Assembly (NCBI GenBank): GCA_002633005.1
Contig: NMRA01001235.1
Coordinates: 1 to 37,151 of the forward strand
Direction of reading: 5' to 3'
Origin: Phoronis australis
Lineage: Eukaryota; Animalia; Phoronida
DNA length: 37,151 nucleotides
Made by a program: the position numbers and the translations under genes. Numbering within the stretch: position 1 is the first letter of the stretch; each line of letters starts with the position of its first letter. Shown here piece after piece: positions 5,126 through 36,945 of this stretch. Under the pieces are notes generated by a model that worked only from the letters and a program-made list of their open reading frames with translations, was not told where the DNA came from and ran no database searches.

Positions 5126-6138
5126 TCAGGAAGTTATATAATCATTAAACCTGGAAGGTTTCTTGATTTCCCTTCCTCTCCTTGTAACTACAGGTTTTGA
5201 ATTAATCTCTGGTAAATCATTATCAGTGTCACTTGTTGATTGAATAGGACTGTGTGTTTGTTTGACTTTGACTTTGTGACGAAATGCACTGGGCAAATTA
5301 GGCTGTACAGAATGTGGAGATTCTGCAGTGGACAGTAACATTTGTCGATTGCGACGATACTCTCGCGCTTCATTACCTGATTTGACAATGTAAGATGTAT
5401 CAGAATGTTGTTTAACCAATTCTGCTGGTTCCCAACCACTCTTAGTTTTCATGCGCATTGCTTGTTCAGACTCAGAATTGTTTAACGCCGGCAATGGTTT
5501 AGTATTTCTGTCGTAATACTTCTTTTGTCTCAATTGATAATTGGAAAGTTGTGAATGCACGAAACGTCTTGTGTGACGCACATTGTCCTCTGCTGTTAGG
5601 TTTTTCAGGTGCTGTTGTGACAGAGTCACTTGCACGGCAAATTTTAATGACATTTACTTCTAAGTCTAGAAGTTTCAACTTGATGTGACTTTCGCGAACA
5701 CCATCGACAATTCTGTCACAAATAAATGTGTCTTCTATGTCACCATAGTCACATCCCTTTGCGCGATGCTTCAGATCGGCAACAAAAGCCATAAGCGACT
5801 CACCGGCTTTCTGGTTGCGTTCCCAAAATGCTTGTCTGCGAATATTTCGGTACTTCTTGTGGCCATAAGTGTTCATCAAAACATTTCAGTACCACGTCTA
5901 AATTATACCTCTCTTCTGGCGACAAATCAAAGGTATTAAACAATTTGACACCATCTGCCCCAAGGACTTGGAGATGAAGTAAAATGTTTACTTTCTGTTT
6001 ACCTGACGCATCCTCGAGTCCGCTTGCAATCAGGTAAATGTCAAATCGCTGTCGCCACTGGCTCCAACTTTCTCCTGTTTTGTCAGTCTCTAGCTGTACA
6101 AACGGTTCTGGCGGGCTCAAGTCTAGCTTAGCAGCCAT
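5126..6138 (-). mobile_element. Internally deleted Ty3/Gypsy LTR-retrotransposon relic (gag joined to the integrase C-terminal tail)
   Basis: Frameshifted gag motifs WSQWRQRFDIYLIASG, AFWERNQKAGES, LKHRAKGCDYG and ICDRIVDGV are followed directly by the pol tail QKKYYDRNTKPLPAL...SYIV...YRRNRQML...TRRGREIKKPSRF. The 5' side falls into the N-gap. Confidence 0.85.
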
Positions 6139-6153
6139 TGTTTAGAACAGTAA

Positions 6154-14418: not shown

Positions 14419-16581
14419 TTGAGTTTCAATTGAGATTCAATTGAAATTCAATTGAATTTCAATAGAAAATTGAATTTCTATTGAATATGTCTATTGAATG
14501 AAAATTCAATTGGCACTTCCCTTGCCGTCAATTGAATGGCTATTGAACGGCTATTGAACTGCTATTGAATTTCTGCACTTAGAAAATTTTTAGCTGTTCT
14601 GTATTGAATGGCTATTGAATTCCAGGACTTAGAAAAATTTTGGCAGTTCGGAATTAAATAGTTATTGAATTTGAGGACTTAGAAAATTTCAGGATGTCGT
14701 GGAATTGAATGGCTATTGAATTTCAAGACTTAAGGAATTTCTGGATGGTTTGATTTAGCAAGTTACCAGCAATGTTTATTTTAAACATGTGTTACCAATT
14801 GGTTGTCAAGGTTACATTCCTGGAAAGTGACCTTTAAGATTTTCAAACCCTTTCAAACGGTTTTGGTACAGCACAAACTCTGCATGGATAGTGAAGAACT
14901 GCATACATTAAATGGTGAGTTTTTGATTTCAACATGGTATTTTTGTCAATTTGATTGTTAATTGACATTTATGTTTCACATATGAATGAGTAGCTTTGGT
15001 CTTGCAAATAAAATGGAAGTTTTTTTAACTGATTCAATTGTTTAAGGTTATGGAAGTTAAGTAGTAGAGCACAGATTTCAAAATGAGTTGGGTTACAGAC
15101 TAAAACCTGCATGTGCATGTAGTTGCCAAGACAAGTGTCAGTTAATCGTGTTTCGACCTATCATATTTTATTTACTTTTATTTTATTTTTTATGATTCTG
15201 TGTTAAAATTCTCACATCAGAGCAATGAGAGAAAAGTAAATTTTTATTTTGGATACATGAACTGAAACTAAATAATTGAGCTATAGGCAATAAGTAAGAG
15301 ATGTATCAGATATTAGAGGTTTGCCATTGCCACCAGTTATCTACCCGTAGTGTCTCTGCAGTATGGTTTAATTAACTCTTCTGCTCATAGGACTAAAAAT
15401 CAAACTTCAGCTATGAGTTTCCATTAGTGCTATTAATGCTCTCAGTCAAAAGCATATTAAATTTTCTAAAAACTATGGCTAATTAAATAAGAAAGCCTTC
15501 ATGTATTTCCTGAGCGACAAGCTCAATACAAAATTCAAATTTACTTAATACTTTATTTCATACCCTCTAACTGGATATTTTTCAACTTTTTTAGTACAGA
15601 AGAAGACTTTGAAAATATGCATGATGAAGTGAAAAGACTATAACACTTGGGAGCTAATGTCCAATGACCTACCAACACTGTGCCGGTCATCAGTTCCTGT
15701 TGTGGACAGATAACTCAAATTAATGGATTATATCAAGTCTCAGTGCTCTGAAAAGTGCGGACTCCAGAGTTCTGCAGAGACCATGAAAGGCTGTACAATG
15801 CCGACATTTAAAGATCTGGTATCACATGTGGACCGTGCTTTTCAGACAACTAATATTTTGCTGCTATAGCTTTGTATGCCTGAAATTATTATTTTTTATC
15901 TTATCGCCTACATTTATTTAGCTAACTGGATATAAAATACTCATTTACCCTTCAACGTATGGATGTGTTCAACTAAGTTCATAGAGTCATATGATTATTT
16001 CATGTAGAGGCTCAGCATACAAATGTTGAAAACAATCTACAATTAGTCAGCATTATATTCTTCAAAATGTTTACAAAAGCTGTTACTTCTCAAATGCCTA
16101 AGGCTCTGTTTTTTGTTTTTCTTTGACAGATGCTGTATGATAATTGTAATACTTGTGCAAGTTTCGATTTAAGGTTTCAAAATGTTCAGTTGTCTATGAC
16201 TTGATTGTATTCATGCATGCCAGGTTCTTGAATGAAGATTGTGAACTATTCTCATCTCTTGAACAGGTTAACAACAATACATCATATTTTTGAAAGAGTT
16301 AATTTATTATAGAAAATACTTGAAATTCAAATTATTCTGTATAGTTAGAAAAATTGAATGGCCATTGAGCGGCTATTGAATGGCCATTGGACGGCTATTG
16401 AATGGCTATTGAATGGTTATTGAATATGGGATGATCCTGTACTGCATGGAGAATTGAATGGCTATTGAACGGCTATTGAATTCCTATTGAATGGCTATTG
16501 AATATGCTAATGAATTGAATCAATTCATTTACATGGCAAAAACATCAATTGAATTTCAACTGAATCTCAATTGAAACTCAA
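14419..16581. mobile_element. ~2.2-kb non-autonomous element with ~37-bp terminal inverted repeats and subterminal GGCTATTGAAT arrays
   Basis: Left ttgagtttcaattgagattcaattgaaattcaattga is the reverse complement (1 mismatch) of right tcaattgaatttcaactgaatctcaattgaaactcaa; 11-mer arrays at ~14530-14720 and ~16355-16505. Confidence 0.75.
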
Positions 16582-17648
16582 TTGAGCGTCTGAGGAGCTC
16601 CATCGCCTCTGGTCGGGCCAATAGAGGCGATGGTCATTGCCTACCCTTTGTCAAGGAAAACACGAATTAACTTTTTTAGTCACTTTGCTACAAAGTTAAA
16701 ATTACTCCCCACAGTTGCTGGCTATAACTGAATGGCCAGGACCATACTACTGATTCTCTGAATAACACGCATATAGCTCAGTGACCCTGCAACCAGCATG
16801 GTGATGCCCAGCTATACTGAGTGCTCTGAATCTCTTACTTCCCTTCATGGGTGTAAGCTGAGCTGTATGTTGGCACTTGGTGTCTTTTGCAGATAAAATT
16901 ATCCTGATGATGTCTAATGAATAGACGAAACTTGAATGAACATGAACTTTTTTATTTGTGCGTCGATCGTCCGTTTAGATTGAATACAAAGGGAGTGCTG
17001 CCGTGAACAGGCATTATAAAAGTTGTCCAAGGGCAAATTGATTCGCAGCCGTGACCAGTGTAAGCGATAAACTCTCCACGTGCAAAATCCGTTTTACACA
17101 TTCTAATTTGTTCAGCCTCGCGCCGCTCTCCCTCGGGTGAGCGGATGTGCATCCTTCAAGCTTTGGTCTGCGTCATATGGCAGCATTGCCACCCACCTTT
17201 AGGCCACTATAGCTCAACATATTACATAACGTTTTCTTTATCGATATTTGTAGTAGTAGTTCAGCTAGTCATAATACATACTCACCCCCCACCCTCGTTG
17301 TTCCACTGTAAACTAGCTTCGTTATCGCACTTAGCGCAGAAGATTAATTGCTCGTGGTTGTTTCCTGAAAATATATGAATATGCGCATGCAGATACCTGA
17401 ACTAATGAAGAATTGGTTTAAGACTAGCAACACTCATGAAAACTTGCTGAAAGCTAGGTGACGCACACTATTCAAAATAAAAATAACCTACTGTCTGGGC
17501 ATTGAAGACTGACCATCAACTTCAAAAGCCGTTACCTGGTAAAGCTGGACCAGTTTCGAAGAAATTATCAATTTCATCACGTGTCAAAGTCAAGTTCAAC
17601 CCTTAGCGTAGCGTTCAGTGATTGGCTGCTTTCTAGCTAATGTAAATA

Positions 17649-20033: not shown

Positions 20034-20683
20034 GTTGTGTGCTACAACCACAACTAAAATCTAACAATCATTATTAAAATGAAACAGAATGTTACATTGT
20101 CATATGCAACCACTCAATCACTCTCAAAGAAAATGTCATAAATTTCTAAACACAATCATTTTTTTGCTTTAGCAAAACTAGGTAGATCTGTTACTTTTGC
20201 ATCCACTCAATAGCCACTCCATAGAAATCAACAGTACCCCTCACCAAGAATCTAACATGATATCTGCTGTGATTTCCTAAATGACAACTGCTCACGATCA
20301 ACTCCTAAACAATGTAGTATTCACAAGGGTCAACTCTTGCGGTGCTTAAATGTGAAGCTAAACGAGGGTAACACAAAGAGCTGATCTGCACCAACTGTGT
20401 GCATTGCAAGTGCTGAAAATATCTGGAGTGCTAATTTCTCAAACAATTCAGATTTCGTGTGAAAATAAAAGAAAAAAAATGATTTCACACAATAAGTTGA
20501 AATGAGAAATGGGCATGAAATCCAGCTTTATAGAACAAATAGAGTTCACTTCATCAATTAACATTGAGTGAAAACTAAGCATGGAATATTAGGGTGCAGA
20601 GGCTAAGTCTCACAAATAAGGTACCGCACAACCCATGTCTCTCTTTTTTAGATAGATGTACTGCAAATTAAGAGCGGACAATC

Positions 20684-20918
20684 CACGCGTGCACCAAGGC
20701 GGGGATCAAGTGGCAAAGTGGGCAAAAAGGACCTCTACAGAGAAACGAAGAGTCCAAAAGAGTAGAAAACGAGACAAAAGTCCACTAAAAAGTCAGGAAC
20801 TACCAAAATTCGGTGAATGCACAATTCACAGTTCTGAGCTTACCCGTATTTTTTCAGTAAAATGTCCACATTCTCAAATATTTGAGCCCCCCATTTTTTT
20901 AGGCTGGGTGCGCGCATG
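20684..20918. mobile_element. Older MITE within the putative 3' UTR
   Basis: cacgcgtgcacc...ggtgcgcgcatg inverted ends (2 mismatches); flanks caatc/aaatc. Confidence 0.5.
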
Positions 20919-21545
20919 AAATCATATTAAGTTAAATCCTGCCATTCTTCAGGATGTAACCATGTATGCTTGAACAGATACATCACAAGCACACACTGTT
21001 CAACAAGTTGTCAAACCAATCAGAATATCATTCTGAATATAATTAACATCTCATTATATTTGTAGCTGAACAATATTTCTCATTTTGTCTGTTTTTTTAC
21101 TTCAACTTTATGTCGCCTCCTTTTAAACTGGTATCAAAACAATCGGTAAGACCAAGTTTCATAGAGGAACAAAGGAAATGGACGTCACCAGCTGTAGCAA
21201 TATTTGCAAAACCATCACTGGTCCACCGTTTGTTTTGCGACAGGGCCTTGAACGGAATACAAACCCACAAAGAGAACATCTCTCATCAGCATTTCCACCA
21301 GGAACCTCAAACTACAGAAAAATTGGTTTGATTTATGAAATCAGCAAACTATATTAATGAGTACAACTTTCAAAATGGGGGATAAGAAACAACTATGACA
21401 CAATCTAAGTTCGCAGTTTTGGAAACATTCAACCACAAAAATAGCATGAAGGCTCTCTACCAAACTCCCTTCTGAAGTTTTTCTTTCAAATATATGGTTT
21501 ACCCCAAAGTTGCTCATTTTCAATCAAAACTGCAATGGCTTGCTT

Positions 21546-22662
21546 TCACTGTATGCAGCATTCATCCTTCTTTATTGGAGCAGACGGATAAGACATAGGA
21601 TATCCTGGGTAAGCTGCAGTGCTGGACTGTGGCTCATAGGGGTTATGGTAAATTGGCCTCGTAGCCAAGCCAACATTCAACCCACTGGCTGTATCTGCAA
21701 CACTCACTGGGTTATTAAGGGAAGATACAGGGGTACCTAACTTGGACTTTCGTGGGGTAATGGCAGGTCTTCCCCCAGCACTAAGTGGAAGTGCTGACCT
21801 CTGTTGTTGGCTCTGTTCATTACCAAGAACCTCACTTTTGACATTTTGACGACTTAGCGAGTGTGCTAATGGATTTCTTTCAGGGCTAACATTCTTCACC
21901 GTGTGAAGACTAATGGCATGTTCATTCCTGTCATTCAGTAGGGGATGTAAAATAGGGGCATGCGAGGTAACACGAGTGGAAGGGGTTTGACTTGGAATTA
22001 CTTCCTTCACAGTCATTGTAGGGACATCGGACACTGGACTGGTCGGGGGAGCTGGACCGATTTGAACCGAGTTCCTCAAAAACTGGACCACAGGAATGCG
22101 GTTTCTCGCAGAACTACCTCCAAGCTGCTGGTCAATCTCTGAGTAAGGTGGTGGCATGTCCCCCACAAGGATATCATGGCCAGACGTAGCAACCTCACCA
22201 GAAACTTCTGCAGAAGTTGCAATGGAGGAAGCGGGTTCTGGCATGGATTCAGACGTCAGCAATGGTGAGTCAGTGATGTCATTGACTGTATACTGTATAA
22301 TATACTCGGGGTAACACTGCTGGCGCTCCGTTGCCATGTAAACACCAGGATTGGCAAAATCATCCAATACTGTGTGAACAGACGATGCCTGTGTACCAGA
22401 TCCAACCAGACCCTGGGCAACACGGCCCACAAACATAAGCAGGGGGCCATCTGCTTTAGATGGCATTAAACGATGCATGAGGTGAGACGTTTTAGTAAAA
22501 TAAACACCGGAACCCAGGTTAACAAGGCCCTCGAGTTGCGGGCACTCAGACATGAAGTTGTTCTTCACAATAAAGTTGACCAAATGTTTGTCACATGACC
22601 AACCATAGAAAAGCCTTGTTTCAGTATTAGCGCCGCATGTCTGGGAGAGGTGCCGCCGTTTC
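21546..22662 (-). CDS. Terminal exon: PARP catalytic core, Pro-rich tail with PPxY, CaaX
   Basis: Acceptor tttcttacag|G. Encodes ETRLFYGW, GSGVYFT, MFVGRVAQG, DDFANPGVY and QCYPEYIIQY; ends KKDECCIQ-TGA. Confidence 0.92.
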
Positions 22663-25600
22663 CTGTAAGAAACGAGAAAAAACTGTCAATAGAATGGTTA
22701 CACAAGTTTTACATTATACATGACAAAAAATACAAATCACAACTTCTGGAACTTTCTGTGAAATAATCTTCTCGACAATGTGGACCAACCTGACTCCTAC
22801 TGACTGAATGCTTCCGTGAAAAATTTGTTCACCTCTGTCGGTGTTCCCATAGACAACAACTACAAGGCCGAGGAGCATGGATTACACGACTTAAATGCAT
22901 GGAAAATTGATTGATAGTGAATTCCAGAAATTGCGATTGGTGATCTTTTCACATCTTGTTATTCACCAGAATGAATGATATTGTTCAACGTCTAAGCTTT
23001 AGATATGAAAAAATAGCAGTCGTCAGTTTAGAAGCAGGAACAAAAATTTGTTGAAGAGTGTTCACTGGCCTTTGTGGACATCCTTGGCCAAAAAATGTGT
23101 CATCTATATCCTTAAGTGGGTGACCACCTTAAGTGGGTGACCAATGGTCATCAAACGGCGATACTGTACACTCAAGTCCCATCACACATCTACATTTAAA
23201 CCCTGATACGCTGAAAACCTGTAAACTTGTGATTTTTCTCTCTGTAGAACTGAATCTATGCAAAATATTGGCCTAACTGGGTCTACCTAAAAAGTTGCTG
23301 ATTCCTGTAATAAAACATCCATTTTTACCCCCAAGCGACTGTGCGTTTCTCTGGATGTTTATTACCACAATAACGCCTCAATTATCACAGCTGCAATCAG
23401 TATGAACAACTACTGAGGCAAAATGTACACTGCTGGTGAGCTTAAAACTCCATAATCTGTCCANATGAGGTGAGACGTTTTAGTAAAATAAACGCCGGAA
23501 CCCAGGTTAACAAGGCCCTCGAGTTGCGGGCACTCAGACATGGAGTTGTTCTTCACAATAAAGTTGACCAAATGTTTGTCACATGACCAACCAAAGAAAA
23601 GCCTTGCTTCAGTATTAGCGCCGCATGTCTGGGAGAGGTGCCTCCGTTTCCTGTAAGAAACGAGAAAAAACTGTCAATAGAATGGTTACACAAGTTTTAC
23701 ATTATACATGACAAAAAATACAAATCACAACTTCTGGAACTTTCTGTGAAATAATCTTCTCGACAATGTGGACCAACCTGACTCCTTCTACTGACTGAAT
23801 GCTTCCGTGAAAAATTTGTTCACCTCTGTCGGTGTTCCTAAATAGACAACAACAACAAGGCCGAGGAGCATGGATCACACGACTTAAATGCATGGAAAAT
23901 TGATTGATAGTGAATTCCAGAAATTGCGATTGGTGATCTTTTCACATCTTGTTATTCACCAGAATGAATGATATTGTTCAACGTCTAAGCTTTAGGTATG
24001 AAAAAATAGCAGTCGTCAGTTTAGAAGCAGGAACAAAAATTTGTTGAAGAGTGTTCACTGGCCTTTGTGGACAACCTTGGCCAAAAAATGTGTCATCTGT
24101 ATCCTTAAGTGGGTGACCACCTTAAGTGGGTGACCAATGGTCATCAAACGGCGATACTGTACACTCAAGTCCCATCACACATCTACATTTAAACCCTGAT
24201 ACGCTGAAAACCTGTAAACTTGTGATTTTTCTCTCTGTAGAACTGAATCTATGCAAAATATTGTCCTAACTGGGTCTACCTAAAAGTTGCCGATTCCTGT
24301 ACTAAAACATCCATTTTTACCCCCAAGCGACTGTGCGTTTCTCTGGATGTTTATTACCACAATAACGCCTCAATTATTACAGCTGCAATCAGTATGAACA
24401 ACTACTGAGGCAAAATGTACACTGCTGGTGAGCTTAAAACTCCATAATCTGTCCAAATCAAACAATAAAGCAAAATATACCCGACTTAACAAAGCCACTA
24501 CCAGGCTGCATCACTAAAGGTCAAATAACCAGTCCTGACCTTAATTTTGAATGCATTTTGAAGCCACAACGATGTAATTTCAAAGGTCATAAGTTCACAG
24601 TATATGCACATTAATGAAGTGCAACAAAATTGTTATATCTCCCTTGATGATTTCCAGGAAATAAGACTTTGGATTCACTCAAGTTGTTGCTGTTCATAAA
24701 CCATTAATAGCCGATCAACATCATAAACTTTTTCGTTTTCTGCTGATACCAATCTCCATAATTTACTTAAACGTGGTACATTTTACTTAAAGGTGATACA
24801 TTTTACTTGAAGGTCATACATTTTACTTGAAGGTGATACATTGTACTTGAAGGTCGTAAATTTTCCAATCACACTAACGGGACGATTTTCTTAACTATAA
24901 ATTTAAACTTTGCCTTGAGCCTTTTCCTGGTCAAAAAAATGTCCACTGACATCCTGCTCCCATTTACCCATATTGTGAGCAATTAAGTGTTACCTGTCAT
25001 AATCTCTCCACAGTTGGCGGTTAGAGATCTTCTGAACTTCTCGTATTGTAACCATACCAGCCGGCATGGATTCATGAAACATGTCACGTATTTGCCCAAA
25101 CTCTTGCTGTTGCAACATAGAGAGAGTGGCACCTTCATCTCCATCATGGAACACAGGGTCAGGATAGCGTGATGTGAATGGAGCAGAGACAGTTGAGGCT
25201 GGAATGACCTGCTTGACTCTCGTGCTGACAGGATCTGCACTGGTCAGTAAAGAGGGACTGGTCAGTGAAGCTGAAGTGGCCAGTAAAGATGGACTAGTCA
25301 GTGAAGGTTGACTGGTAAAAGAAGGTGAACTGGTCAGTGAAACCTGCTTCAGAGCACCAACAATGCTTGGCTGAAACACGTCAGACGATTCCCCTCTGCA
25401 ACAGATATACATTCACTATAATAATTTGAAAACTATAATTTGATCACAGAACTAAAGTTGGTCAGCAAGTGTGAAGTTCACATGTTCTGCATTGTTGCAA
25501 GACAGAAACTATTAACACAGCAACTTTATAATTACTTGTCGCACTTTCATCTTCAGTGCCACTTTGGATCAAAGATAATTATAAAGTTGTGTTCAATTCT

Positions 25601-26444
25601 TGCTTAGTTAAAAAATAATGATTTATGATCAACCGTGGCATCAAAGAAAGAATATCTATAATCACTTATTATATACTAAATATATTTGTTCCCACTACCG
25701 TGTTTATACTTTGCCNCTATAATAATTTGAAAACTATAATTTGATCACAGAACTAAAGTTGGTCAGCAAGTGTGAAGTTCACATGTTCTGCAATGTTGCA
25801 AGACAGAAACTATTAACACAGCAACTTTATAATTACTTGTCGCACTTTCATCTTCAGTGCTACTTTGGATAAAAGATAATTATAAAGTTGTGTTCAATTC
25901 TTGCTTAGTTAAAAATAATGATTTATGATCAACCGTGGCATAAAAGAAGGAATATCTATAATCACTTCTTATATACTAAATATATTTGTTCCCACTACCA
26001 TGTTTATACTTTGCCTCCACCCCCACGTCACAGCCAACCCTCACCCTTCAATGCCCCACCCCCAAACTATACGTTCAGTCTCATCATGCAAATGCATGTA
26101 CCTTTTCACAGACAACATACAACTTGAATGTTTGGCTAAGTTCAGGTATATATACACACACCGTGACCTCTTACTCGCTTTCCCACTCCATTGCTACACC
26201 GTCACTCTCACCTTGCAAGCTCCTGTACCTCTTCAGGACTCACATACAGTGGTCGGCTGCGTATAGGCAGGCGTGTACCTGTCTCATCGTGCAAGAAGTA
26301 CATCTCCTCAAAGTTCACCTCATAGTGGTCGCCATCTGGTGAGCGGAACTTGTACTTTGCCTGACCCTCAGCATACTTCCTCTCCAACTCTTTCATAAAG
26401 GGACTACCTTCGTCTTCCTGTATTAATGACACTTGGGTAAGCGC

Positions 26445-26493
<49 letters not shown>

Positions 26494-29400
26494 TGGTTTA
26501 TGTCAACACAGAGCCTGGTTGAGTAGATAAAATTCAAAACAGCACCCCCTTTGAGATTATTTATTAATCGTTGCTATTTCACACATACTTGAATATGTGC
26601 CAATTCATTTCTCAGAAATTAACCTATCACAAGCTCAATCCCATGCAATAAGTCAACAAACAAACAATAAGTTTCACCCGATGTGCTGTTTGACTGGTAA
26701 AATGGCGGCATGGAAACGAAGGTGTGTCAAGGATGCAGCGTTCTGATTCATTCGTTAACCTGTCACTCAAAATCCTGGCGATGGTTCATTGGCTGTTCAG
26801 ATTCACATGAAACTTTAAGATATGATGCTGTTTCCTAAAACGCTATTATCAACTGCTTTTAAATGTTCTACTTTTGTATGTGGGGCTATCAAAAACTATA
26901 GGCATTTTATAATTCCCTAATTATATCAAACAAAATGAAATTTAACTTCTCCACTTCTCAAACTAAAACAAGAACAACACACAGGGTTGAAATATGCCCA
27001 TGACTTCAATGCGAACAATGAGCTTCTAGGTGTTTTTTATTAGTATCATAAAATGGCCACTAGATGGCGCAGAATACCTCAAAAGCATCCCAAAATGGGA
27101 AGATGTCGTAGCCTTTCGGCAAACAGAAAGCTATACTTGCTATATTTCATGCAAATCAGTAGTTGATTACAGAGGCGAACATGGAAAAACAAATTTCCAT
27201 TAGGAAAAAAGCGACAGTTCAAGAAGTCCATCTAATGGGAATACACTTTCCAGACTTCCAAAAGATCTTGCTTGGGGGCTTAAGGAGAACCGCAGATACA
27301 AAAACTTTCACCAGCGGGCAGCAGAGTGGTTGAATTTCCACAATGAGCCTCTTAACGGTTAGGCGAATACATAAGGAGATGACTCCAAAAAATAACAAAA
27401 CTGGCCACTAGGTGCATATCTTAAGAAATGAGCGTCTTCCTTGTTAGCGTATTATTCACAACAAAGGCAAACATAAAAACAAAAATTACAACAAAGGAGT
27501 ACAGCGGTAGTCAGAACAATCCAAAAGTCTTAGGCAACCATAGTCTCATTTATAGTACAACACTTGCAAAGTTTCACGAAGATCCTTCAAAGGAGATACA
27601 GAAGAGGATGTAAAAAAAAGACAAAATCACCACCTCCCCCGTCGGTACCAGAAAGATAGTCCTTGTGTAAACAGTTGAAAAAGTTACTTCCTTTAAGTGA
27701 CTCATTTGATTATACATGCAGATGCCAAAAACAAACTCGCAAAAATAAAAATGTCCACTAGGTGGTGGGAAAATACATCAGATCTGTACAAAAATGCAAG
27801 AGCAATGTCATCACCTTTACAGAAACCTATTTGCCAAATTTCAATCCAACAATCAACAGATATAGAGGCAAAATGAATGCAAGGAAAATAAAATTCCCAC
27901 TTGGGGGCACAGCCGTAGTCGGATTATTGATCTGAAACAGGTCATAACCCGTCGTCAGTTGACAGGAGCACATCCGCAAAATTTCACAGTGGGTTACGAA
28001 AACACAGCCATTGACTCAAAAATGCCACTAGGGGGCACCGAAGTAGTTAAACCTTTCCAAACATCAGTGTTATCTGTGGTCTTCTCATCAGAAACACATC
28101 TGGAGCCAAATGAATTTTTACAAAGAACTTTCGAGCAAATTGGCAGATAGAGAGGCGGCTGCCAAAAACAGACTAGAAACTTTCAAAAATCACCACTAGG
28201 TTGCGCAGAAAATGTCATATTGTTAGAAGACAGGACAGCATTATCGTTTCCTCAATAAAAAACCTATTTGCCAAGTTTCATGAAAATCCAATAACAATGA
28301 ACTCAGAAAATACACAAGAAAAAGTAAAAATATAAGAAACACACCAGTCGTTGGATTGATCTAAACATGTCAGGGCAGACACATGCTAAACTATGTGGGG
28401 CACGCATACTAATAACCAAACGCATAACAATGGGAATGTCTCCTTATATTTGGGGACTATTTTAGTTCAGAGGTTGTTTCCAGAATTTTAGAAAATCATG
28501 TCAAAAGAAGACACTTTAGTGTCCCTACATAGTAAAAATAGGTTTGATTTCAATCCAAAGTTTTGCAGATGATCTTGGCAAAGTAAAAAAAGATTTAAAT
28601 ATTTCTTTTAATTAACTCCCATTATCAAACCCATGATACAAAATATGCTTTTGTTTTCATAAATGAAACACTGTTTAGGGGTTCATTTACACTAATTCCA
28701 TTGCCACGCATGTGTTCTTAGAGACTCTCAACCTTTGACCCCTTCTACCAAGCAAAACAGATACGTTTGAAAACTTGGGATGACAGTGGGCCAAGTGCAC
28801 TATTGCAAAATATGATTTACAGTCACGACAAGGAACTTGGGGTTTACTAAACGTTTTTTGCAACAACATTAGTTGTATATGAAACAAATCAATAACTTCC
28901 TGTGCTGTCCATAGCTATTAGAAGATCAAGCTGAGCAGAGCTTCAGTTTTATGGACAATTCCACCAGGGTGTTAACGTTTGTTACAGTGTGACACACCGA
29001 CTACTCACACCTGCACCTGGCATGAGCAAGTCTGTATACTTCTGTATCAAGACATATTGAATGGGAAAGTGCTTCTATTAGCCACGATTGGGTGAATTTG
29101 AAAGGAACTTCACCGGATTTAAAAATTGGAATACTCCTGACACCAAAAGCAGCTTTTACCCTAGACAAGTACCACCATCTGAGCTTAGCCTGCACGGCTG
29201 GAGTAGGGCCACCATACGCTGAAAGCTTTCCAGAAAATATATGTCTCACAGTGACTAAGTCACCAACCTCATGTTGCTAGAAGTACCTTTACAGGTAAAC
29301 ATTGTAACCACAATCAACATTTTTTTAAAGTAGCCCTTCTCTCTGTCAAAGAAATGGAAGACTGAACGTTTTTGATGTGAATGTGCTCAGGGTGAAACAA

Positions 29401-32400
29401 CGGAAACGTAGAGGATTATGGAAGATCCCCCATCTCTTAGCCACGCGAGAGGCAGCAGCTCAGACAGGAACAAGATTGTCCACTTCTGTACTAAACAATG
29501 CTTATCTAAGCCAAACTTGAGAGGACTGATAAGAGTCAGGTAAACATTGTTAACTAAACAAGTTAGAAGAGGGTAGGACGAGCGCACGAGAATTGAAAAA
29601 CAGCACAAGATCAACAGCTGAAATTAAGTGGGGCAACACCATGTTGCAAAAATGGAGATGATCGTCATTAAACGAAACAGCAGCAGTGTTTCTGAGACGT
29701 CACCTTGAACGTTTATATCCAATAAACTGTGGTATTGGTATCGTTTTACTATGTACCTTGGTTTTGTGCAAAATTTTACTTCACGGACATAGCCACATGA
29801 CTTAATATATGTCAGATTGGAAAAATGTTAAAAATCAAATTCCACAGGATTAATTTCTGCTTTCACAAAATAAACACCTTGACTAAGTTAAACAAATTAA
29901 CCAGGAATTTCTTAAAGATTACATCACAGATATTAACGCAATGACCCATACACCTTGACTAAGTTAAACAAATTAACCAGGAATTTCTTAAAGATTACAT
30001 CACAGATATTAACACAATGACCCATACACCTTGACTAAGTTAAACAAATTAACAAGGAATTTCTTAAAGATTAGATCACAGATATTAACACAATGACCCA
30101 TACACCTTGACTAAGTTAAACAAATTAACCAGGAATTTCTTAAAGATTACATCACAAATAGTAACACAATGACCCTACGTCAAAGGTAAATAAAAGAATT
30201 AGATCTTATACTACAACTTTGATACCAACACGACATAAGTGTAACCCTACCCCTTTCCATTCGCCATTTGGCAATCCATAATACCAAAGCCAACGGGTCG
30301 AGAAGGGCGAGTTGTCTTTGTCTGGGTTGAAAGGAGGTGTTGACAAGTGACGGATTTCAAATACTTTTACTTCACCACTTCTTTTGTCACAACCAGTTAA
30401 CTCCATGGAATCAAAGGCAATTTTACAATCACCAAAGAAAGGAAGTGGTTCTCTAGAACACATTCAAACGGAAGAGTCAAACTTAGAGCAAGAAAGCAGA
30501 AAGTATCACATCATGGCGAATACATTTAGGGGCCAGTTAACTCACACCACAAGGTGTAACTGAACTCAAGGTAATTAGTTCCCATATTCAGATCCTGAAC
30601 CATTATGGAGATGAAACGCGCTGGTGAAGATATTCAGGCATGCATGACATCACTAATGGACATTAACAAAGTTGGATGGAACAGAGCAGTTTCAGAAGAA
30701 CAACAGTTCTTCACACAGCACGTAACATCAAACAAAGAAACATGAATCCAGCTCAACATCCAAATACTATAGCGGATTTGACTTATGACACATGCATAAT
30801 AATTAAAAAGATTTGAGTATTAATTATCACAACCTATAACCAGGATACAGCAAACAATTAAGTCACCTTTGAGACTCGGACTTGACAGGGAAAGTCAGGT
30901 TCAGTTTGAGAATGGCTGGATCGCAGAACTTCTGCTCCAGAACACAGCAGCAGTCTCCCTCAAACAGCTTCCAAATGCTCCTCTGATTCACTGTAGTCTT
31001 GTATTGCCAGTAGTATGGCAGTCCACAATGATGGTTGTGACAGTCAGGGGCACTGAAGAAAGCAAGAGAAGGAGTACAATAGTGATGCTTGTGACAGTCA
31101 GAGGCAATGGAGACAAACAAGGCAGTACATTAGGGATGGTTGAGGTGTGCAGACTTGGGGACGTTATATGTTCATAACTGAGGTGGCTATGTAAGTATCA
31201 TCAAGAGAGGACTGCACTTAAAGTCTTAGTAAAACAACTTTCCAGAGAACTTCACAAAATGTTCATACTCTGATCAGAAGATCGTAAAGCATTCTGACAA
31301 AGCTGTTTACATATTTTCGCTGTGATTCAAGAGCTTTCATTGTGTTGCACTCTACTAAACAGTCGAATCATTTAAACGTGCAGGTATTTTAGTTAAAATC
31401 CATAAGCACATAATCCTAAAATATGGCATAGCATCCTTTTAAGCAGAAAAAACAAACAAACAAACCAACAAACAGCAAATACACTCACCAACGCTTGTTA
31501 CTCAGAAAATCCACACAGATGTCTCTGAAGTCATCATCATCATACACACGAACTTCACAGTTATCGTCATCAGAGTCTGTGCCCTGCCGTTTCATGAATG
31601 ATGAGAAGCCACTGTCAGTAGAAATGTTACGATGAAGTTGACTCGTTTTGACACCTTTGGATGAGACCTTATCTTGAGGTGAAGCAAAGTTGTTGTCAAG
31701 ATTTGCAAACATCGAGTCTGTCACATCTGGTTTAGACACCTCAGCCTTTTTCTTTGTCTTTTTCATCTTCTCTTCTTTGGTGGCTGGAAGTTTCTCCTCT
31801 TTCTCCAAAGGTGGTGCTGGTGATGCTGACATAGCCACTTCTTTAACAAACGTGTTAAGTGAAGACGACATTGGTAGAATGATATGCTTGACAACTTTTG
31901 TTTCAACTTGGGCTAATCCAAACTTCTTCAAAACATTCATATTTGATTTGATGTTGAGATCGTGCCATTTGCCACATTTCACCTTTGACTTGCAAGTGCC
32001 GTCTACATAACCCTGACAGACATGTAGCTTTCTACAAGCCTCAGAACACGAATCTTCGTTATAGGCGGTGCATAGAGCCGGAAAAGAATGCGCGACGACA
32101 TACTTGAGATTAACCTTAGACATTCGGTCAAAGCCACGAGTACGGAGAAGCTTTCTTAGTTTGGCATCTTGAAAATCATGAGCTTTTGAACAAAGCTGAT
32201 CATGCTCCCTATCTCCAATGTAGTCGCGACAAACATGCAAAAACTTGCAGGTATCGACAGAACATCCAGCAGGTGAGTTGTAGTCTTTACACAACCAGAT
32301 AGGGAACTTCAAACAAATCTCCAGCTGTCTATCTGACAGGTAGCACACAAATTCATTAGTGTGATTAAGTAGCCAAGACTGAAAGTTGGATAAAGTGGTA

Positions 32401-35400
32401 AACAACTGCAGAACGGCAGGGTCCTCAACCAGCACAGAATAGGAGCAGAAACCACCGTGAGACAACAGCAGTTGCTTGATAGATGTCACTAGTGTTGCAT
32501 CACTCTGTTCCTCCACCACTGGTTCCGACGTGACACTCTCTGCATCTGAATCACTGCCACTGCCTAGGACAGAACTCGACAGACTCTCCATGCTGACGCC
32601 AGGCTTCAGCTCCTTTCGGACTCGAGGCCTACGCTTTGTCTTTTTTGCACTTGCACTGCTCAGTGGCATCTCCTGCTTCAAATCATGCCTTGGCGAAGTA
32701 CTATCCTCTGATTTCCATGTTACCAACACATTCACCCGCGTGTTTTCGTCTAAAGCGTCCTGGCTAAAACAGTACTCACTTCGCAGACGCATGCAGNAGC
32801 ACACAAATTCATGAGTGTGATTAAGTAGCCAAGACTGAAAGTTGGATAAAGTGGTAAACAACTGCAGAACGGCAGGGTCCTCAACCAGCACAGAATAGGA
32901 GCAGAAACCACCGTGAGACAGCAGCAGTTGCTTGATAGATGTCACTAGTGTTGCATCACTCTGTTCCTCCACCACTAGTTCCGACGTGACACTCTCTGCA
33001 TCTGAATCACTGCCACTGCCTAGGACAGAACTTGACAGACTCTCCATGCTGACGCCAGGCTTCAGCTTCTTTCGGACTCGAGGCCTGCGCTTTGTCTTTT
33101 TCGCACTTGCACTGCTCAGTGGCATCTCCTGCTTCAAATCATGCCTTGGCGAAGTACTATCCTCTGATTTCCATGTTACCAACACGTTCACCTGCATGTC
33201 TTCGTTTTCAGTGTCTGCCCTAAAACAGTACTCACTTCGCAGACGCATGCAGTTCTCATCATGATAACTGTGGTTCCTGCTACAGTTGGTCTCCCTACAA
33301 ATACCCAAGACAAACCAGCGACAGATATGGGCATTCCGACAGTTGGTCGACTGACTGCATCCAATAGGCTTATTGTAATATCTGCAGACAGTGAGAAAAC
33401 ATTGCCTGATGTACTCTACCATTTCATCGCTAGAGTTACTGATGATGGGCACCTTCCGCGCCTTCAACACCTTCTGGTTTTGAGGACTGTTGAATGTATG
33501 GCCTAGTTTGCAGGATTCAGTCTTGCATGAACCTCGCTCCAACCACATTTTGCATATGTGCAGATAACCACAGGTGGCGTTGTTACACTCGCCGTTGCTT
33601 TTTATGTAAGTGGCACACAGCTTCACTTGCCCTGGCTTTAAAGGTGGGTGACCATCAGAGGTGAGTTGTAAATCTGAAAATACAGTCAGTCATTCTCAGG
33701 AAAATTCAATACAACATACAGTAACACTCGCCTAAGTCACATGTGATCTATGCTTAATTCGTGGTAATAATTTTTAGTTTGTGCATTCAACCTTTCAGAT
33801 TAGTAAAAGCTAGCGCTCGACCCTTGGCTTGGCGCCAAGTCACCAAATGCAACTTGGCGGAAATCCCAGGTTTCCAAACAAAATCTGGCGTCACCAACAC
33901 TTACGTCAAAATTGTCATAGGCAAGACAAAGTGTTACCATAGCAAACTCAGCTAAGACAATAAAGGCCCTGTTACTCTAAAGCCATTCCCATGATGCCCG
34001 ACCCGTCTTAACATCTTGAAGAAACTGGTTGGACACTGGAAGATAAGCAGCTTTGGACAAAAACACGCCCCAAATGAGGCATAGTCTACGGAGGATCTTA
34101 TCCAATCTATGCCTGACAATCTTATTTGGTTTCAGTTCTTTGTTTCTGTTTTCAAGATCATATTGAGAACTATGTTGGTGCAATAGGGCGATAAGCTAAA
34201 AAATTCAACATGTGTTATTCTCTATATATCAAATGGAACAATGATGAAATACATTCTTCATTGTCTCCTAAAGTCATGTTAAGAATATATGATAGGTAAC
34301 TAGTTTGAACTCGTCCCCTAGTAAGTAAGATTGTAGGAATCAAAAACACACAATTATAAGCGAATAAGATACCATGCTATGAACATTCCCACTAAATAAA
34401 ATTGGTTCTAACCCCGGTGTTTAAGGTAAACGGCGGGGTATGGAAAATNAAGCCTGATAAGAGTGAAGGTGGATAAATGCGGTGTTCCTACAGTTTCTTG
34501 TTTTAGTGGATGTGTTCACGACATGCTATATTGAAGCAGACACTTGATGTTGGTATAATTGAAAAATGAGACTAAACTACAGTGATTTAACAAATCGTTT
34601 TTACTGATAGGTGGCACCACAAGATTACATATATTTAAAAAAAAATGGCACAATGCAGAGCTCAACATTAACTTTTGAAGACACTTGCCCTTTGTCTAGG
34701 CTTCCTTGTTTGGACATTTTTCCAAAGTGCAGACGATCAGTAGCATCACGTGACACCTTATTTTAAAACCCATTACATGCTTACTAGAGCTCGTTGAGAG
34801 AATCGAAAGAATTTGACCGCGGACATCAGCAGCGCATGCAGCATAGCACTCATTCAATTTTTCTTACAGTGGTCATTCAAAGATACAAGTCTGTTTGGAG
34901 GCCACGTGGGATTTATCGATGGCATTGAGGTTTGTGTCAGGTTATTTACTTTGGAGCAGCAGTTGTGCAGCCTATCAGAGGATCTATTTGTCTACAATGA
35001 GCTTTTTAACTTGCCCATTGGTCAGGTACTTTTCAAATTCCACTCGCTCAACGTAAAAGCTACATGTACTCGGGCAACCTGGCAACCCTTAGTGTTGAGC
35101 CCTGCAATATCTGCACTTGTTCTATTGCTCTACCTGATGTCCACTTACCTTGCACACTGTGGTACTTTCTGATTAAGTTAGACACTGGTGCAGTCTTGGG
35201 CATCTCGTCAACAACTCCGACGACAAGCACAGAGCCAAAGATGGTGTTCATCGCTTTAGTCGTGTCAATATGATACTTGGCTAGAAGTGCCCCCGTGTGG
35301 GGGTCGGAAAAATTATGGCACTTGCCACATGCCTTGGGCGACTGGCAGGTGCCCAAGGCGAAATTGGCACAGACGTGGAGGCGAGGGCATGAGTGGTTGG

Positions 35401-35437
35401 CACAACCTTCCGGGCTAAAGTTGTAATTCCAGCAGAC
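21546..35437 (-). CDS. PARP12: PARP12/ZAP (ZC3HAV1/PARP13)-like protein, spliced and 5'-incomplete: join(35437-35149, 33673-31489, 31052-30867, 30452-30251, 26417-26212, 25395-24994, 22662-21546)
   Basis: Seven exons with GT-AG boundaries and matching phases (0/1, 1/2, 2/2, 2/0, 0/2, 2/2, 2/stop) sum to 4587 nt. Domain order is CCCH clusters - HTH - CCCH - WWE - WWE - PARP catalytic (YPEYIIQY) - CaaX, the PARP12/ZAP architecture. The symbol is a family-level call only; orthology is untested. Confidence 0.9.
22477..24455. repeat. ~990-bp tandem duplication around the n at 23464 (22477-23463 / 23465-24455), including a second copy of the 5' part of the PARP exon (23465-23650); probably an allelic assembly artefact
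   Basis: Near-identical copies directly abutting a single n. Confidence 0.9.
24777..24855. repeat. 20-bp minisatellite, ~4 copies
   Basis: tacattttacttgaaggtga repeated. Confidence 0.9.
24994..25395 (-). CDS. Exon: Ser/Thr/Pro-rich linker and start of the PARP domain
   Basis: Acceptor ctgttgcag|A and donor AG|gtaaca. Encodes EFGQIRDMFHESMP...IREVQKISNRQLWRDY, a typical PARP catalytic-domain entry. Confidence 0.88.
25416..26015. repeat. ~300-bp tandem duplication around the n at 25716 (probable allelic artefact)
   Basis: 25416-25715 matches 25717-26015. Confidence 0.9.
26212..26417 (-). CDS. Exon: remainder of WWE2
   Basis: Acceptor ttaatacag|GAA and donor AG|gtgaga. Encodes KELERKY...YEVNFEEM...TGTRLPIRSRPLYVS. 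Confidence 0.88.
26449..26491. repeat. (TA)n microsatellite
   Basis: Pure TA run ~30 bp upstream of the WWE2 exon acceptor. Confidence 0.98.
26622..26785 (-). mobile_element. ~170-bp interspersed MITE-like repeat, inverted and diverged relative to 36484-36653
   Basis: The reverse complement shares atcgccagg, aatcagaacgc, gacacaccttc, gccgcca.tttaccag, aaacttattgttt and gagcttg.gatagg with 36484-36653. Confidence 0.7.
27000..28330 (+). repeat. Ancient internally repetitive intronic element with recurring CCACTAGRKGG and CAAGTTTCATGAA-like motifs
   Basis: Motif variants at 27057, 27405, 27755, 27897, 28025 and 28193, each preceded by A-rich tracts. Confidence 0.6.
28430..28960 (+). mobile_element. 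Heavily decayed LINE reverse-transcriptase relic
   Basis: In order across frameshifts: GMSPYI, SEVVSRIL, KIGLISIQSFADDL (FADD at 28562-28573), CLGVHL. Confidence 0.45.
29874..30175. repeat. 76-bp minisatellite, 4 copies
   Basis: Units start at 29874, 29950, 30026 and 30102 (acaccttgactaagttaaac...). Confidence 0.95.
30251..30452 (-). CDS. Exon: end of WWE1 and start of WWE2
   Basis: Acceptor gtgttctag|A and donor GGG|gtaggg. Encodes IAFDSM...IRHLST...FSTRWLWYY...GEW. Confidence 0.85.
30867..31052 (-). CDS. Exon: end of the pre-WWE CCCH and first half of WWE1
   Basis: Acceptor gctttcttcag|T and donor AG|gtgact. Splicing rebuilds ICVDFLSNKRCAPDCHNHHCGLPYYWQY...LEQKFCDP, the PARP12/TIPARP/ZAP signature. 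Confidence 0.9.
31489..33673 (-). CDS. Large exon: eight CCCH-type fingers in two blocks of four, ZAP-like HTH, start of the pre-WWE CCCH
   Basis: Acceptor tattttcag|AT and donor TG|gtgagt. Covers the 713-aa ORF with repeated C-x7-9-C-x3-5-C-x3-H motifs and LLLSHGGFCS. Confidence 0.92.
32342..33252. repeat. 456-bp-period in-frame exonic duplication around the n at 32797
   Basis: 32342-32796 matches 32798-33252; duplicates 152 codons. Confidence 0.9.
35149..35437 (-). CDS. First visible exon of the PARP12/ZAP-like gene (two CCCH fingers)
   Basis: Acceptor ttgttctggacag|GTC and donor CAAG|gtaagt. Encodes VCWNYNFSPEGCANHSCPRLH and VCANFALGTCQSPKACGKCH. No start codon, so upstream exon(s) are missing. 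Confidence 0.85.
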
Positions 35438-35476
35438 CTGTCCAGAACAAGGGAAGAATGAATTGATCTTTTCTAT

Positions 35477-35701
35477 GTAGTGCAGTCACAAAGGTGTGTG
35501 TGACTAGTTCTTACACAGGAAGTAGTGCAGTCGCAAAGGTATGTGACTGATCAAGAATGTGTCCTTCATCTGCAGTCACAAAGGTGTGCGTGACTAGTTC
35601 TTACACAGGAAGTAGTGCAGTCACAAAGGTGTGTGTGACTAGTTCTTACACAGGAAGTAGCGCAGTCATAAAGGTATGTGTGACTAGTTCTTACACAGGA
35701 A
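35477..35701. repeat. 45-bp minisatellite, ~5 copies (one interrupted)
   Basis: gtagtgcagtcacaaaggtgtgtgtgactagttcttacacaggaa repeated; contains the inverted pair agtcaca/tgtgact. Confidence 0.9.
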
Positions 35702-36483
35702 GGCCATGAGACAGCAGCCTATTGTGGTAGACATGCTAGCCAAAACTTTAGATTAACCAAAATGTTATCATTATATACATACAAATTATTTGTCTTCATG
35801 TACAATTAGCCATATGTCGGTCACATCACAAGTCTGAAAAGATCTCTTCCTCAATCGTGATTAGAAAAAGCTGATGTAAAATATAGGACTTTGATAAATT
35901 TTATAATTTCAAAGTATCGCGAAAGTGATATCACTGGGATGAGTGCCAAAGTACAAGCATTCTGAGGACTATTTCAATACAATAGACTCTATATTGCTAA
36001 AACAACTACTAGACCTTTTAGCCCACTGGCTCGCACAGTCCTTCACTCATGCAGTTCCAAGAAACAAATTGCCTGCCCTGCTATACGTACACAAAGTCAC
36101 GAGATAACCAATCTCTATCTTTAAAAGAAGAAAATTTGAATNTTTAGCAGCATATCTACAAAATTTTTGTGAAGGTGTGAAAATATATAGTGAAAAGGGA
36201 TAGTACACTAAGTATATGTCTTGCAACAAGTTTGACGCCCTTCGTGCTTGCAATTCTAATGCGTGACGGTGCACGCTTCAAAAGGCTTGACAGCCTCTTC
36301 CATGTCTACTTCTGTCAATTTTCTGTTCATGAGCCGAAACTTGGTTACTCTGGTCAATCCCAGTTTGCAAAGCTACAACTACTTCTTGACTATGTGCACT
36401 ATGTTTCAGCATATGGGATATTGCCTATTGAATTCAGAAGTCTATATATTGCTTATTGAATTCAGAAGTCTAAACTGACTTAG

Positions 36484-36653
36484 CTATCGCCAGGCTGATT
36501 GGGTGACGACTTCATTGACAAATCAGAACGCAGCATTCACACAGACACACCTTCATTTCCAAGCCGCCAGTTTACCAGACAAACAACACGTTGAGGGTTA
36601 AAACTTATTGTTTAATTGTTTGTCGACTTTCCGCAAGGCAGAGCTTGCGATAG
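36484..36653 (+). mobile_element. ~170-bp MITE-like repeat with short TIR (ctatcgccag...cttgcgatag)
   Basis: Short inverted ends and a second family member at 26622-26785. Confidence 0.65.
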
Positions 36654-36945
36654 GAGAATTGGGCTATTATATGCTCCTAATTATCTACCAGTTGCATGGT
36701 TAAACTGTGCCGAACTTAAAAATTTCTCTGTGTAGTCAAAGCACTTACAAAAATGTTTAAGAATTGCAGAATTTTGAAATGTGTACAAGAAAGATCGTGA
36801 CTATAAATAACTGGTGAGGCCACTTGTGACAATTACAGACATTGGAAATTCAATCTTTTCTTAGTAGGAATGGCAGAATTTGGAAAATAAATTGCTACAA
36901 GAATGCAGCCAAAAACAAATTGACACTAGATGGTGCAATCTTCAC
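36608..36945 (+). repeat. ~340-bp direct repeat, copy 2
   Basis: Matches 532-885. Confidence 0.9.

What the first reader, a model, noticed from the sequence alone, without database searches (positions are those of the whole stretch)
21546..35437. Apparent invertebrate ZAP-L-like antiviral protein: dead Y-Y-V PARP plus CaaX plus expanded CCCH array
Seen: the spliced protein is CCCH(n)-HTH-CCCH4-CCCH-WWE-WWE-PARP, with a Y-Y-V triad and a terminal CCIQ. Established: vertebrate ZAP-L (PARP13) differs from its active paralog PARP12 (H-Y-I) by a Y-Y-V triad and a farnesylated CaaX (CVIS), and is generally described as a vertebrate PARP12 duplicate. Inference: this genome looks invertebrate (TE repertoire, heterozygous AT-rich assembly). 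If so, the gene is either a convergent re-invention of the ZAP-L design (non-catalytic, membrane-anchored viral RNA sensor) or evidence of an older origin.
Basis: partly seen in the sequence, partly recalled or inferred. Interest (0 to 1): 0.9.

Follow-up and report, generated by a model that had tools for sequence, protein, structure and literature searches.

The report
Enzyme-dead invertebrate PARP12/ZAP-family gene
This is a transcribed, very fast-evolving relative of the antiviral protein ZAP, likely from an invertebrate, that resembles human ZAP-L mostly by convergence, and its relatives suggest that the membrane-anchor motif thought to be a tetrapod invention is likely much older.

Summary
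The gene is real. Seven GT-AG exons on the minus strand (35437-21546) give a 5'-incomplete ORF of 1376 aa: two fingers, CCCH4, winged helix-CCCH4, CCCH-WWE-WWE, PARP, 236-aa tail, CCIQ. RNA reads confirm three of six joints and the terminal exon. The PARP triad reads Y-Y-V. It is not ZAP. It is 23-29% identical to all 32 relatives, falls outside vertebrates in two trees, and lacks ZAP's CpG tyrosine and the WWE2 ADP-ribose pocket. Both supposed ZAP hallmarks weaken on testing. A CaaX-position Cys ends 11 of 18 named invertebrate PARP12-likes (coral, molluscs, crinoid, amphioxus; one in CCIQ) and some fish ones, all with catalytic His. All 18 non-eutherian ZAPs sampled keep His. His-to-Tyr recurs in pike and blackfish paralogs, and the window's second haplotype has Phe there. 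Doubled zinc-finger units exist in amphioxus too. Verdict: a lineage-specific pseudo-enzyme of the PARP12/ZAP family, likely a farnesylated multivalent RNA binder. Catalytic death is convergent; the CaaX is probably inherited. Antiviral function is untested and the species is not identified. The by-product, a likely pre-vertebrate CaaX, conflicts with a 2025 paper and is the most interesting part.

The parts
35149..35437 (-). First exon present (internal; acceptor AG, no start codon): two CCCH fingers resembling fingers 3-4 of a third ZAP-type unit
   Evidence: RNA joint to exon 2 in 15 reads
31489..33673 (-). Exon 2: CCCH4 unit (about 33617-33270), basic/acidic linker, winged helix + CCCH4 unit (about 32528-31960), linker, start of fifth-type finger
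   Evidence: RNA joints on both sides
32342..33252 (.). 455-bp two-copy duplication around a single N (32797): assembly/haplotype artefact, one copy in RNA
   Evidence: depth 0-0.24 over 32481-32834 in X2-X4
30867..31052 (-). Exon 3: end of fifth-type CCCH finger, first WWE
   Evidence: RNA joints
30251..30452 (-). Exon 4: end of WWE1, start of WWE2
   Evidence: RNA joint to exon 3 in 34 reads
26212..26417 (-). Exon 5: WWE2; ADP-ribose pocket Gln/Asn replaced by Phe/His
   Evidence: PF02825 above cut-off; alignment columns; joints inferred from GT-AG and phase
24994..25395 (-). Exon 6: Ser/Thr-rich linker and start of PARP domain
22477..24458 (.). 990-bp two-copy duplication around a single N (23464); the second copy holds a truncated start of the PARP exon with Phe at triad position 1
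22260..22662 (-). Terminal exon, PARP-like part: Y-Y-V triad, lost Ala/Ser of the NAD+ site, shortened loop
21561..22259 (-). Terminal exon, Ser/Pro-rich tail of about 236 aa
   Evidence: transcribed
21546..21560 (-). CaaX box CCIQ and stop
   Evidence: same motif listed as farnesylated in PDE6A and PTP4A1 (PMC7674641)
20300..21545 (-). 3' UTR, transcribed at least to 20300
   Evidence: stranded read depth

Best explanation
This is a transcribed, fast-evolving PARP12/ZAP-family gene, likely of an invertebrate, whose protein has lost the conserved residues of both the PARP NAD+ site and the WWE2 ADP-ribose pocket, carries at least two and a half zinc-finger RNA-binding units, and is predicted to be farnesylated at CCIQ, so it likely works as a non-enzymatic, membrane-tethered RNA-binding scaffold. 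Shown: exon chain, domain order, residue losses, transcription. Inferred: farnesylation and endomembrane location, RNA binding by avidity without CpG specificity, hand-over of bound RNA to decay or translation-block cofactors, and an antiviral role (suggested only by family membership and rate of change). The CaaX was likely inherited from His-bearing PARP12-like ancestors. The catalytic loss arose independently of eutherian ZAP.
For: Open 7-exon frame and stranded RNA. PARP His, Ala and Ser columns are H/A/S in 31 of 32 relatives (H in all 32; one turtle swaps A and S) but Y/T/M here; WWE2 pocket is Q/N in 31 of 32 but F/H here; Q668 and N670 are the ZAP ADP-ribose contacts (PMC8853533). Cys at -4 in 11 of 18 named invertebrate relatives across four phyla, background Cys frequency 2.4%, including CCIQ in a bivalve. 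18 of 18 HTH_53-bearing amphibian, turtle, bird and marsupial ZAPs are H-Y-I/V with CaaX; PMC8102003 also calls chicken and alligator ZAP likely active. Y at position 1 recurs in Dallia (Y-Y-V) and Esox (Y-Y-I) paralogs, each with a shortened loop (22-29 residues against 31-36 in 159 of 160 His domains). Vertebrates group without the window at 97/94 and 89/92; AU rejects window+tetrapod ZAP (p 0.022) and window+jawed vertebrates (p 0.026). Haplotype copies differ by 2-7% and window CpG o/e is 0.64, fitting a polymorphic invertebrate.
Against: No functional data at all: no induction, binding, localisation or restriction. The window's branch is extremely long (about 3-4 changes per site), so its place is unsure, and AU did not reject window+marsupial ZAP (p 0.153). 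No eutherian ZAP, PARP11 or TIPARP was in the trees. Degeneration extends to zinc ligands, and triad position 1 varies Y/F, which also fits simple decay. The tails do not align, so CaaX homology is not proven (7 changes on the tree). Species not identified; RNA runs differ from the window at many fixed sites and may be another population or a sister species.
Confidence: 0.6

Rival explanations
1. A redundant PARP12-like duplicate under relaxed constraint: still transcribed, but its PARP, WWE and some fingers are drifting; Y-Y-V is an accident of decay and it has no special defence role.
For: Y/F at triad position 1 between haplotype copies; Cys-to-Tyr in the fifth-type finger in all 33 RNA reads; many replacement differences: 3 of 5 and 11 of 16 changed codons between copies, 18 of the 30 RNA differences I classified; longest branch in every tree.
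Against: A 1376-codon frame, all splice sites and the CaaX at the end of a 236-aa tail are intact despite about 3 changes per site; listed exon indels in RNA are in frame (3 and 6 bases); 14 zinc-ligand/structural columns of the last unit are invariant in a 30-row alignment.
Confidence: 0.2
2. A functional non-catalytic membrane-bound RNA regulator that acts on host mRNAs (stress, development, germ line, transposons) rather than on viruses.
For: Expressed at similar modest depth in three RNA runs with no known challenge; ZAP's CpG tyrosine and PAR pocket are absent; human PARP12 itself does not restrict CpG-rich virus (PMC8102003).
Against: Extreme sequence rate and module duplication are typical of host-pathogen conflict genes (family knowledge; PMC4038475 passages for PARP13).
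Confidence: 0.13
3. Evidence of an older origin: a true ZAP-L ortholog, with Y-Y-V and CaaX shared by descent with human ZAP.
For: Human ZAP is the best PDB sequence match of the PARP exon (E 3.7e-8 against 5.8e-5 for PARP12); AU does not reject window+marsupial ZAP (p 0.153).
Against: All 18 sampled non-eutherian ZAPs keep His; AU rejects window+tetrapod ZAP; the structure model ranks PARP12 first, weakly; the ZAP match is explained by parallel loop shortening seen also in fish Y-forms; the window has the QCYP motif of bivalve and amphioxus members.
Confidence: 0.04
4. The source is a vertebrate and this is an ordinary ZC3HAV1 or a fish PARP12 paralog.
For: The top hit of the PARP exon among 1.84 billion representatives is a fish Y-Y-V paralog (30% identity); species not identified.
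Against: 25% identity to opossum ZAP while opossum is 51-58% identical to other tetrapod ZAPs; AU rejects window+jawed vertebrates; 2-7% haplotype divergence; best matches for the finger and WWE regions are amphioxus proteins.
Confidence: 0.03

Closest known systems
Amphioxus PARP12-like proteins with doubled RNA-binding units (P0054 B. lanceolatum, P0056 Branchiostoma hybrid)
   Same: Tandem CCCH4 units, CCCH-WWE-WWE-PARP, low-complexity tail, CaaX (CSIQ); best matches for finger and WWE regions.
   Different: They keep H-Y-I, the WWE2 Q/N pocket and an aromatic residue at the Y108 position; only about 29% identical; the window has at least one more half unit.
Bivalve PARP12-likes (P0093, P0089 Potamilus; P0148 Sinanodonta)
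   Same: Same core, tail and terminal CCIQ/CCLQ.
   Different: One CCCH4 unit, intact H-Y-I and WWE2 pocket.
Human ZAP-L (PARP13/ZC3HAV1)
   Same: Winged helix-CCCH4 fold, CCCH-WWE-WWE-PARP order, Y-Y-V at triad positions, shortened PARP loop, CaaX.
   Different: Not in the ZAP clade; multiple RNA-binding units; Y108 replaced by L and K; Q668/N670 equivalents lost; CaaX sits 236 aa after the PARP domain; triad position 1 varies Y/F.
Vertebrate PARP12 and esociform fish paralogs (P0001 Dallia, P0027 Esox)
   Same: Same family; the fish paralogs show the same His-to-Tyr change and loop shortening.
   Different: Tetrapod PARP12 is H-Y-I without CaaX; the fish Y-forms lack WWE and CaaX.

Membership tests
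PARP12/ZAP family (CCCH4 + CCCH-WWE-WWE + PARP) | Four-finger N-terminal unit with ZAP-type fold | tested here: met
PARP12/ZAP family (CCCH4 + CCCH-WWE-WWE + PARP) | Fifth CCCH, tandem WWE and C-terminal PARP-like domain in that order | tested here: met
   PARP and first WWE below Pfam cut-offs when scanned exon by exon
ZAP/PARP13 (ZC3HAV1) orthologs | Groups with tetrapod ZAP in WWE-PARP phylogeny | tested here: not met
   long-branch caveat; window+marsupial ZAP not rejected; no eutherian ZAP in set
ZAP/PARP13 (ZC3HAV1) orthologs | CpG-pocket residues K89, Y98, K107, Y108 | tested here: not met
   Y108 is L and K in the two complete units, Y98 absent, K89/K107 kept in one unit only (residues from PMC8102003); the third unit's finger 2 lies outside the window
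ZAP/PARP13 (ZC3HAV1) orthologs | HTH_53 N-terminal domain | tested here: inconclusive
   no Pfam HTH_53 or WH_PARP12 match, but a winged helix is modelled and aligns to ZAP structures
ZAP/PARP13 (ZC3HAV1) orthologs | WWE2 ADP-ribose pocket (W611, Q668, N670) | tested here: not met
   W kept, Q to F, N to H (PMC8853533)
ZAP-L design (eutherian) | [quoted passage not shown] | tested here: met
   but F-Y in the second haplotype copy
ZAP-L design (eutherian) | C-terminal farnesylation-type CaaX | tested here: met
   CCIQ (PMC7674641); prenylation itself not tested
ZAP-L design (eutherian) | Binds and restricts viral RNA; immune-induced; uses TRIM25/KHNYN | not testable with these tools
   needs bench work; no genome was held to look for cofactors
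Active PARP12-type mono-ADP-ribosyltransferase | H-Y-I/L triad and intact NAD+ site | tested here: not met
ZAP/PARP13 (ZC3HAV1) orthologs | Synteny with the vertebrate PARP12/ZAP locus | not testable with these tools
   no neighbouring genes in the window (101 other ORFs scanned, only a retroelement endonuclease passed)

The most novel reading that the evidence does not exclude
The farnesylated, membrane-anchored form of the PARP12/ZAP family dates to the cnidarian-bilaterian ancestor (tetrapod PARP12 lost the CaaX; ZAP did not gain it), and catalytic death to Y-Y-V/I has happened repeatedly. This invertebrate gene independently reached the ZAP-L end state and went further, dropping ADP-ribose reading as well and multiplying RNA-binding units into a membrane-bound antiviral RNA trap.
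Probability: 0.3. Interest if true: 0.8.

Novelty: new variant of a known kind. Interest (0 to 1): 0.52.

Why it matters
Published accounts place ZAP's origin in lungfish/tetrapods and the gain of its CaaX box in early tetrapods (PMC12204182). CaaX motifs on His-bearing coral, mollusc, crinoid, amphioxus, teleost and lungfish PARP12-likes suggest the opposite polarity, and that is directly testable with public sequences. A transcribed invertebrate paralog that has independently lost catalysis offers a natural replicate for asking why ZAP-like proteins lose ADP-ribosyltransferase activity, and a candidate RNA-restriction factor in an animal without interferon.

Tried and rejected
No whole genome is held, so species, paralogs and cofactors could not be checked. 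Word-index homolog searches with the PARP exon (92 candidates, 0 hits) and exon 2 (7258 candidates, 0 hits) found nothing; the exhaustive search found no close relative (best 30-38% identity; 4 of the 30 hits are low-complexity repeat proteins and were ignored). The one metagenome locus (L001) is a chance 8-residue match in an unrelated bacterial ORF. No indexed RNA holder was listed; the raw-read lays supplied the evidence. ORF 29004-29276 has no Pfam match and is not needed in the frame; treated as intron. The single-exon PARP model was poor (pLDDT 59) and its fold search had no hit at E<=0.001. The finger-unit tree did not resolve the window's units. The ESM Atlas hit for the terminal exon was under 0.9, a lead only. 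WWE2 exon had no PDB sequence hit. Earlier scan findings: none. A paper search for 'Y-Y-V' with 'triad motif' gave 0. The wide structural search was busy and not repeated. Amphioxus as the source was considered: best hits point there, but margins on single units are modest (73 vs 62 and 69 vs 59 bits) and the trees do not support it, so the phylum is left open.
Full report
Gene structure. Six-frame translation and splice-site inspection give seven exons on the minus strand from 35437 to 21546. All six introns are GT-AG, the phases match, and the chain is one open frame ending DECCIQ-stop: 1528 residues as assembled, 1376 once a duplicated block is counted once. The first exon starts at an acceptor without a start codon, so the 5' end is missing. 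Single Ns in the assembly are flanked by 93-98% identical copies. One lies in exon 2 (455 bp) and one over the start of the PARP exon (990 bp). RNA depth falls to 0-0.24 across 32481-32834 while flanks have 7-12 in X2, so transcripts carry one copy. The duplicated block holds the winged helix and linker but no finger, so the finger expansion is real: ten CCCH motifs by pattern plus one degenerate finger.

Expression. One run shares 0.14 of the sampled words and three raw-read runs carry the same species label. Laid on 20300-23460, the three give stranded coverage (first mate on +, so RNA on the minus strand) of roughly 4-17 over the terminal exon and on into a 3' UTR. Laid on 30180-35470 they give the joints of exons 1-2 (15 reads), 2-3 (33) and 3-4 (34). 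The reads differ from the window at many fixed sites, so they may come from another population or a sister species. Only 40 difference rows were shown per call, so the CCIQ and triad codons in RNA are not verified. All 33 reads over joint 2-3 change the second Cys of the fifth-type finger to Tyr.

Domains and residues. Pfam finds PARP12-type CCCH tandems, WWE and PARP. The last unit, folded with a 30-row alignment (pLDDT 85.7), matches the five ZAP RNA-binding-domain structures at E 5e-9 to 2.5e-7 and nothing else below 0.001, although Pfam HTH_53 does not hit. The PARP exon aligns to human ZAP and PARP12 with Y, Y and V at the triad positions. Decay goes beyond the triad. In a 33-row alignment the window alone has Y/T/M where all 32 relatives have H and 31 have A/S, and F/H where 31 of 32 have the WWE2 Q/N. 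Q668 and N670 bind ADP-ribose in ZAP and Q668 mutants lose PAR binding (PMC8853533, passages). ZAP's CpG contacts are K89, Y98, K107 and Y108 (PMC8102003, passage); Y108 is Leu and Lys in the two complete units. The second haplotype copy of the PARP exon has Phe at triad position 1, whereas in human ZAP these residues contribute to restriction (PMC8568172, passages).

Are Y-Y-V and CaaX ZAP hallmarks? A profile search returned 247 proteins, 120 listed. Of 167 PARP domains held, 149 are H-Y-I; the profile was built from 16 His-bearing rows plus the window, so this is not an unbiased census. All 18 listed proteins with HTH_53 (frogs, turtles, birds, opossum) are H-Y-I or H-Y-V with a CaaX, in line with the statement that chicken and alligator ZAP are likely active. 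So Y-Y-V is a late state within ZAP and cannot be shared by descent with an invertebrate. Tyr at position 1 also occurs in Dallia (Y-Y-V) and Esox (Y-Y-I) paralogs, and all six Tyr rows have a short loop (22-29 residues against 31-36 in 159 of 160 His rows). His-to-Tyr needs one transition (genetic code). This parallel decay likely explains why ZAP and the Dallia protein top the hit lists. A Cys at position -4 ends 11 of 18 named invertebrate relatives: coral CSVM, amphioxus CSIQ (4), bivalve CCIQ and CCLQ (3), abalone CILM and CKIM, crinoid CICM, and also teleost CLIS/CVIA and lungfish CLIL. These rows are not independent, but they span four invertebrate phyla and all keep His. Seven unnamed terminal-exon proteins among the 30 hits show the same PARP-tail-CaaX layout. 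CCIQ is listed as farnesylated in PDE6A and prenylated in PTP4A1 (PMC7674641, passage). PMC12204182 (parts 1-2 of 3 read) concludes that the CaaX was acquired in tetrapods; it sampled vertebrates, and its tables S2-S3 were not among the supplement files held, so they may bear on this. Searches (listings only) found no paper on CaaX in invertebrate PARP12-likes; invertebrate ZAP/PARP12-like genes themselves are known (PMC8102003, parts 1-2 of 8).

Phylogeny. From 45 chosen proteins, 6 lacked the start motif (three abalone, three fish) and 5 were dropped for run time or truncation. In the 34-row fifth-finger-to-PARP tree vertebrates group without the window at 97/94; without the other long branch (33 rows) at 89/92. 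AU tests reject window+tetrapod ZAP (p 0.022) and window+jawed vertebrates (p 0.026) but not window+marsupial ZAP (p 0.153). The window's branch is 3-4 changes per site, the root is arbitrary, and no eutherian ZAP, PARP11 or TIPARP was available, so the tree excludes more than it places. Identity to all 32 relatives is 23-29%, against 51-58% among tetrapod ZAPs. Amphioxus proteins with two CCCH4 units are the best matches outside the PARP domain, which shows that unit duplication is not unique either. CaaX needs 7 changes on the tree and is present in 22 of 33 rows; this fits ancestral presence with losses but does not prove it, because tails do not align.

Source. GC 38%, CpG o/e 0.64, 2-7% divergence between haplotype copies and the QCYP motif shared with bivalve and amphioxus members fit a polymorphic invertebrate (inference). 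The phylum is not determined; no neighbouring gene was found among 101 other ORFs.

Mechanism. Shown: a transcribed protein with several ZAP-type RNA-binding units, a PARP and a WWE2 domain that have lost their conserved nucleotide-binding residues, and a CaaX. Inferred: farnesylation tethers it to endomembranes, the units bind RNA by avidity without CpG specificity, and the dead PARP and tail serve as scaffolds for decay or translation-block partners. An antiviral role is plausible from family and rate but untested. Replacement changes are frequent (3 of 5 and 11 of 16 changed codons between haplotype copies, 8 of the 11 clustered in ten codons; 18 of 30 RNA differences that I picked from the rows shown), which fits either conflict-driven change or relaxed constraint.

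Verdict. Observation confirmed with corrections. It works like ZAP-L in layout, but it is not a ZAP. It is a new variant of the PARP12/ZAP family with convergent loss of catalysis and a probably ancient membrane anchor.

Noticed in passing
P0043, P0053, P0054, P0056, P0057, P0089, P0093, P0126, P0139, P0148, P0161, P0087, P0122, P0128, P0157, P0160: His-bearing coral, amphioxus, mollusc, crinoid, teleost and lungfish PARP12-like proteins end in CaaX-type motifs, at odds with a tetrapod origin of the ZAP CaaX.
   Followed up: partly
P0001 (1049-1177), P0027/P0039/P0040/P0042: Esociform fish carry PARP12 paralogs with Y-Y-V or Y-Y-I and a shortened loop, lacking WWE: an independent catalytic loss.
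   Followed up: partly
window 31489: All 33 RNA reads and one contig have a different base at the exon 2/3 joint, turning a zinc-ligand Cys into Tyr.
   Followed up: partly
window 5129-6141: Broken gag-like and integrase-tail-like ORFs on the minus strand next to a 668-base gap; look like an LTR retrotransposon remnant (by eye, no Pfam hit).
   Followed up: no
window 8948-9771: Non-LTR retroelement endonuclease fragment (PF14529, E 9e-12).
   Followed up: no
window 20711-20918 and 34250-34780: Short dispersed repeats with high read depth on both strands, one inside the 3' UTR, one in intron 1.
   Followed up: no
window 14419-14732 and 16353-16585: 11-bp and 50-bp minisatellite arrays sharing one unit; further arrays at 29874-30175 (76 bp x4) and 35477-35702 (45 bp x5).
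   Followed up: no
window 31031-31110: The intron just before exon 3 holds a near-copy of the exon's first codons (finger end), a small local duplication across the acceptor.
   Followed up: no
window 532-885 and 36608-36945: A 350-bp repeat (93% identical) near both ends of the window.
   Followed up: no
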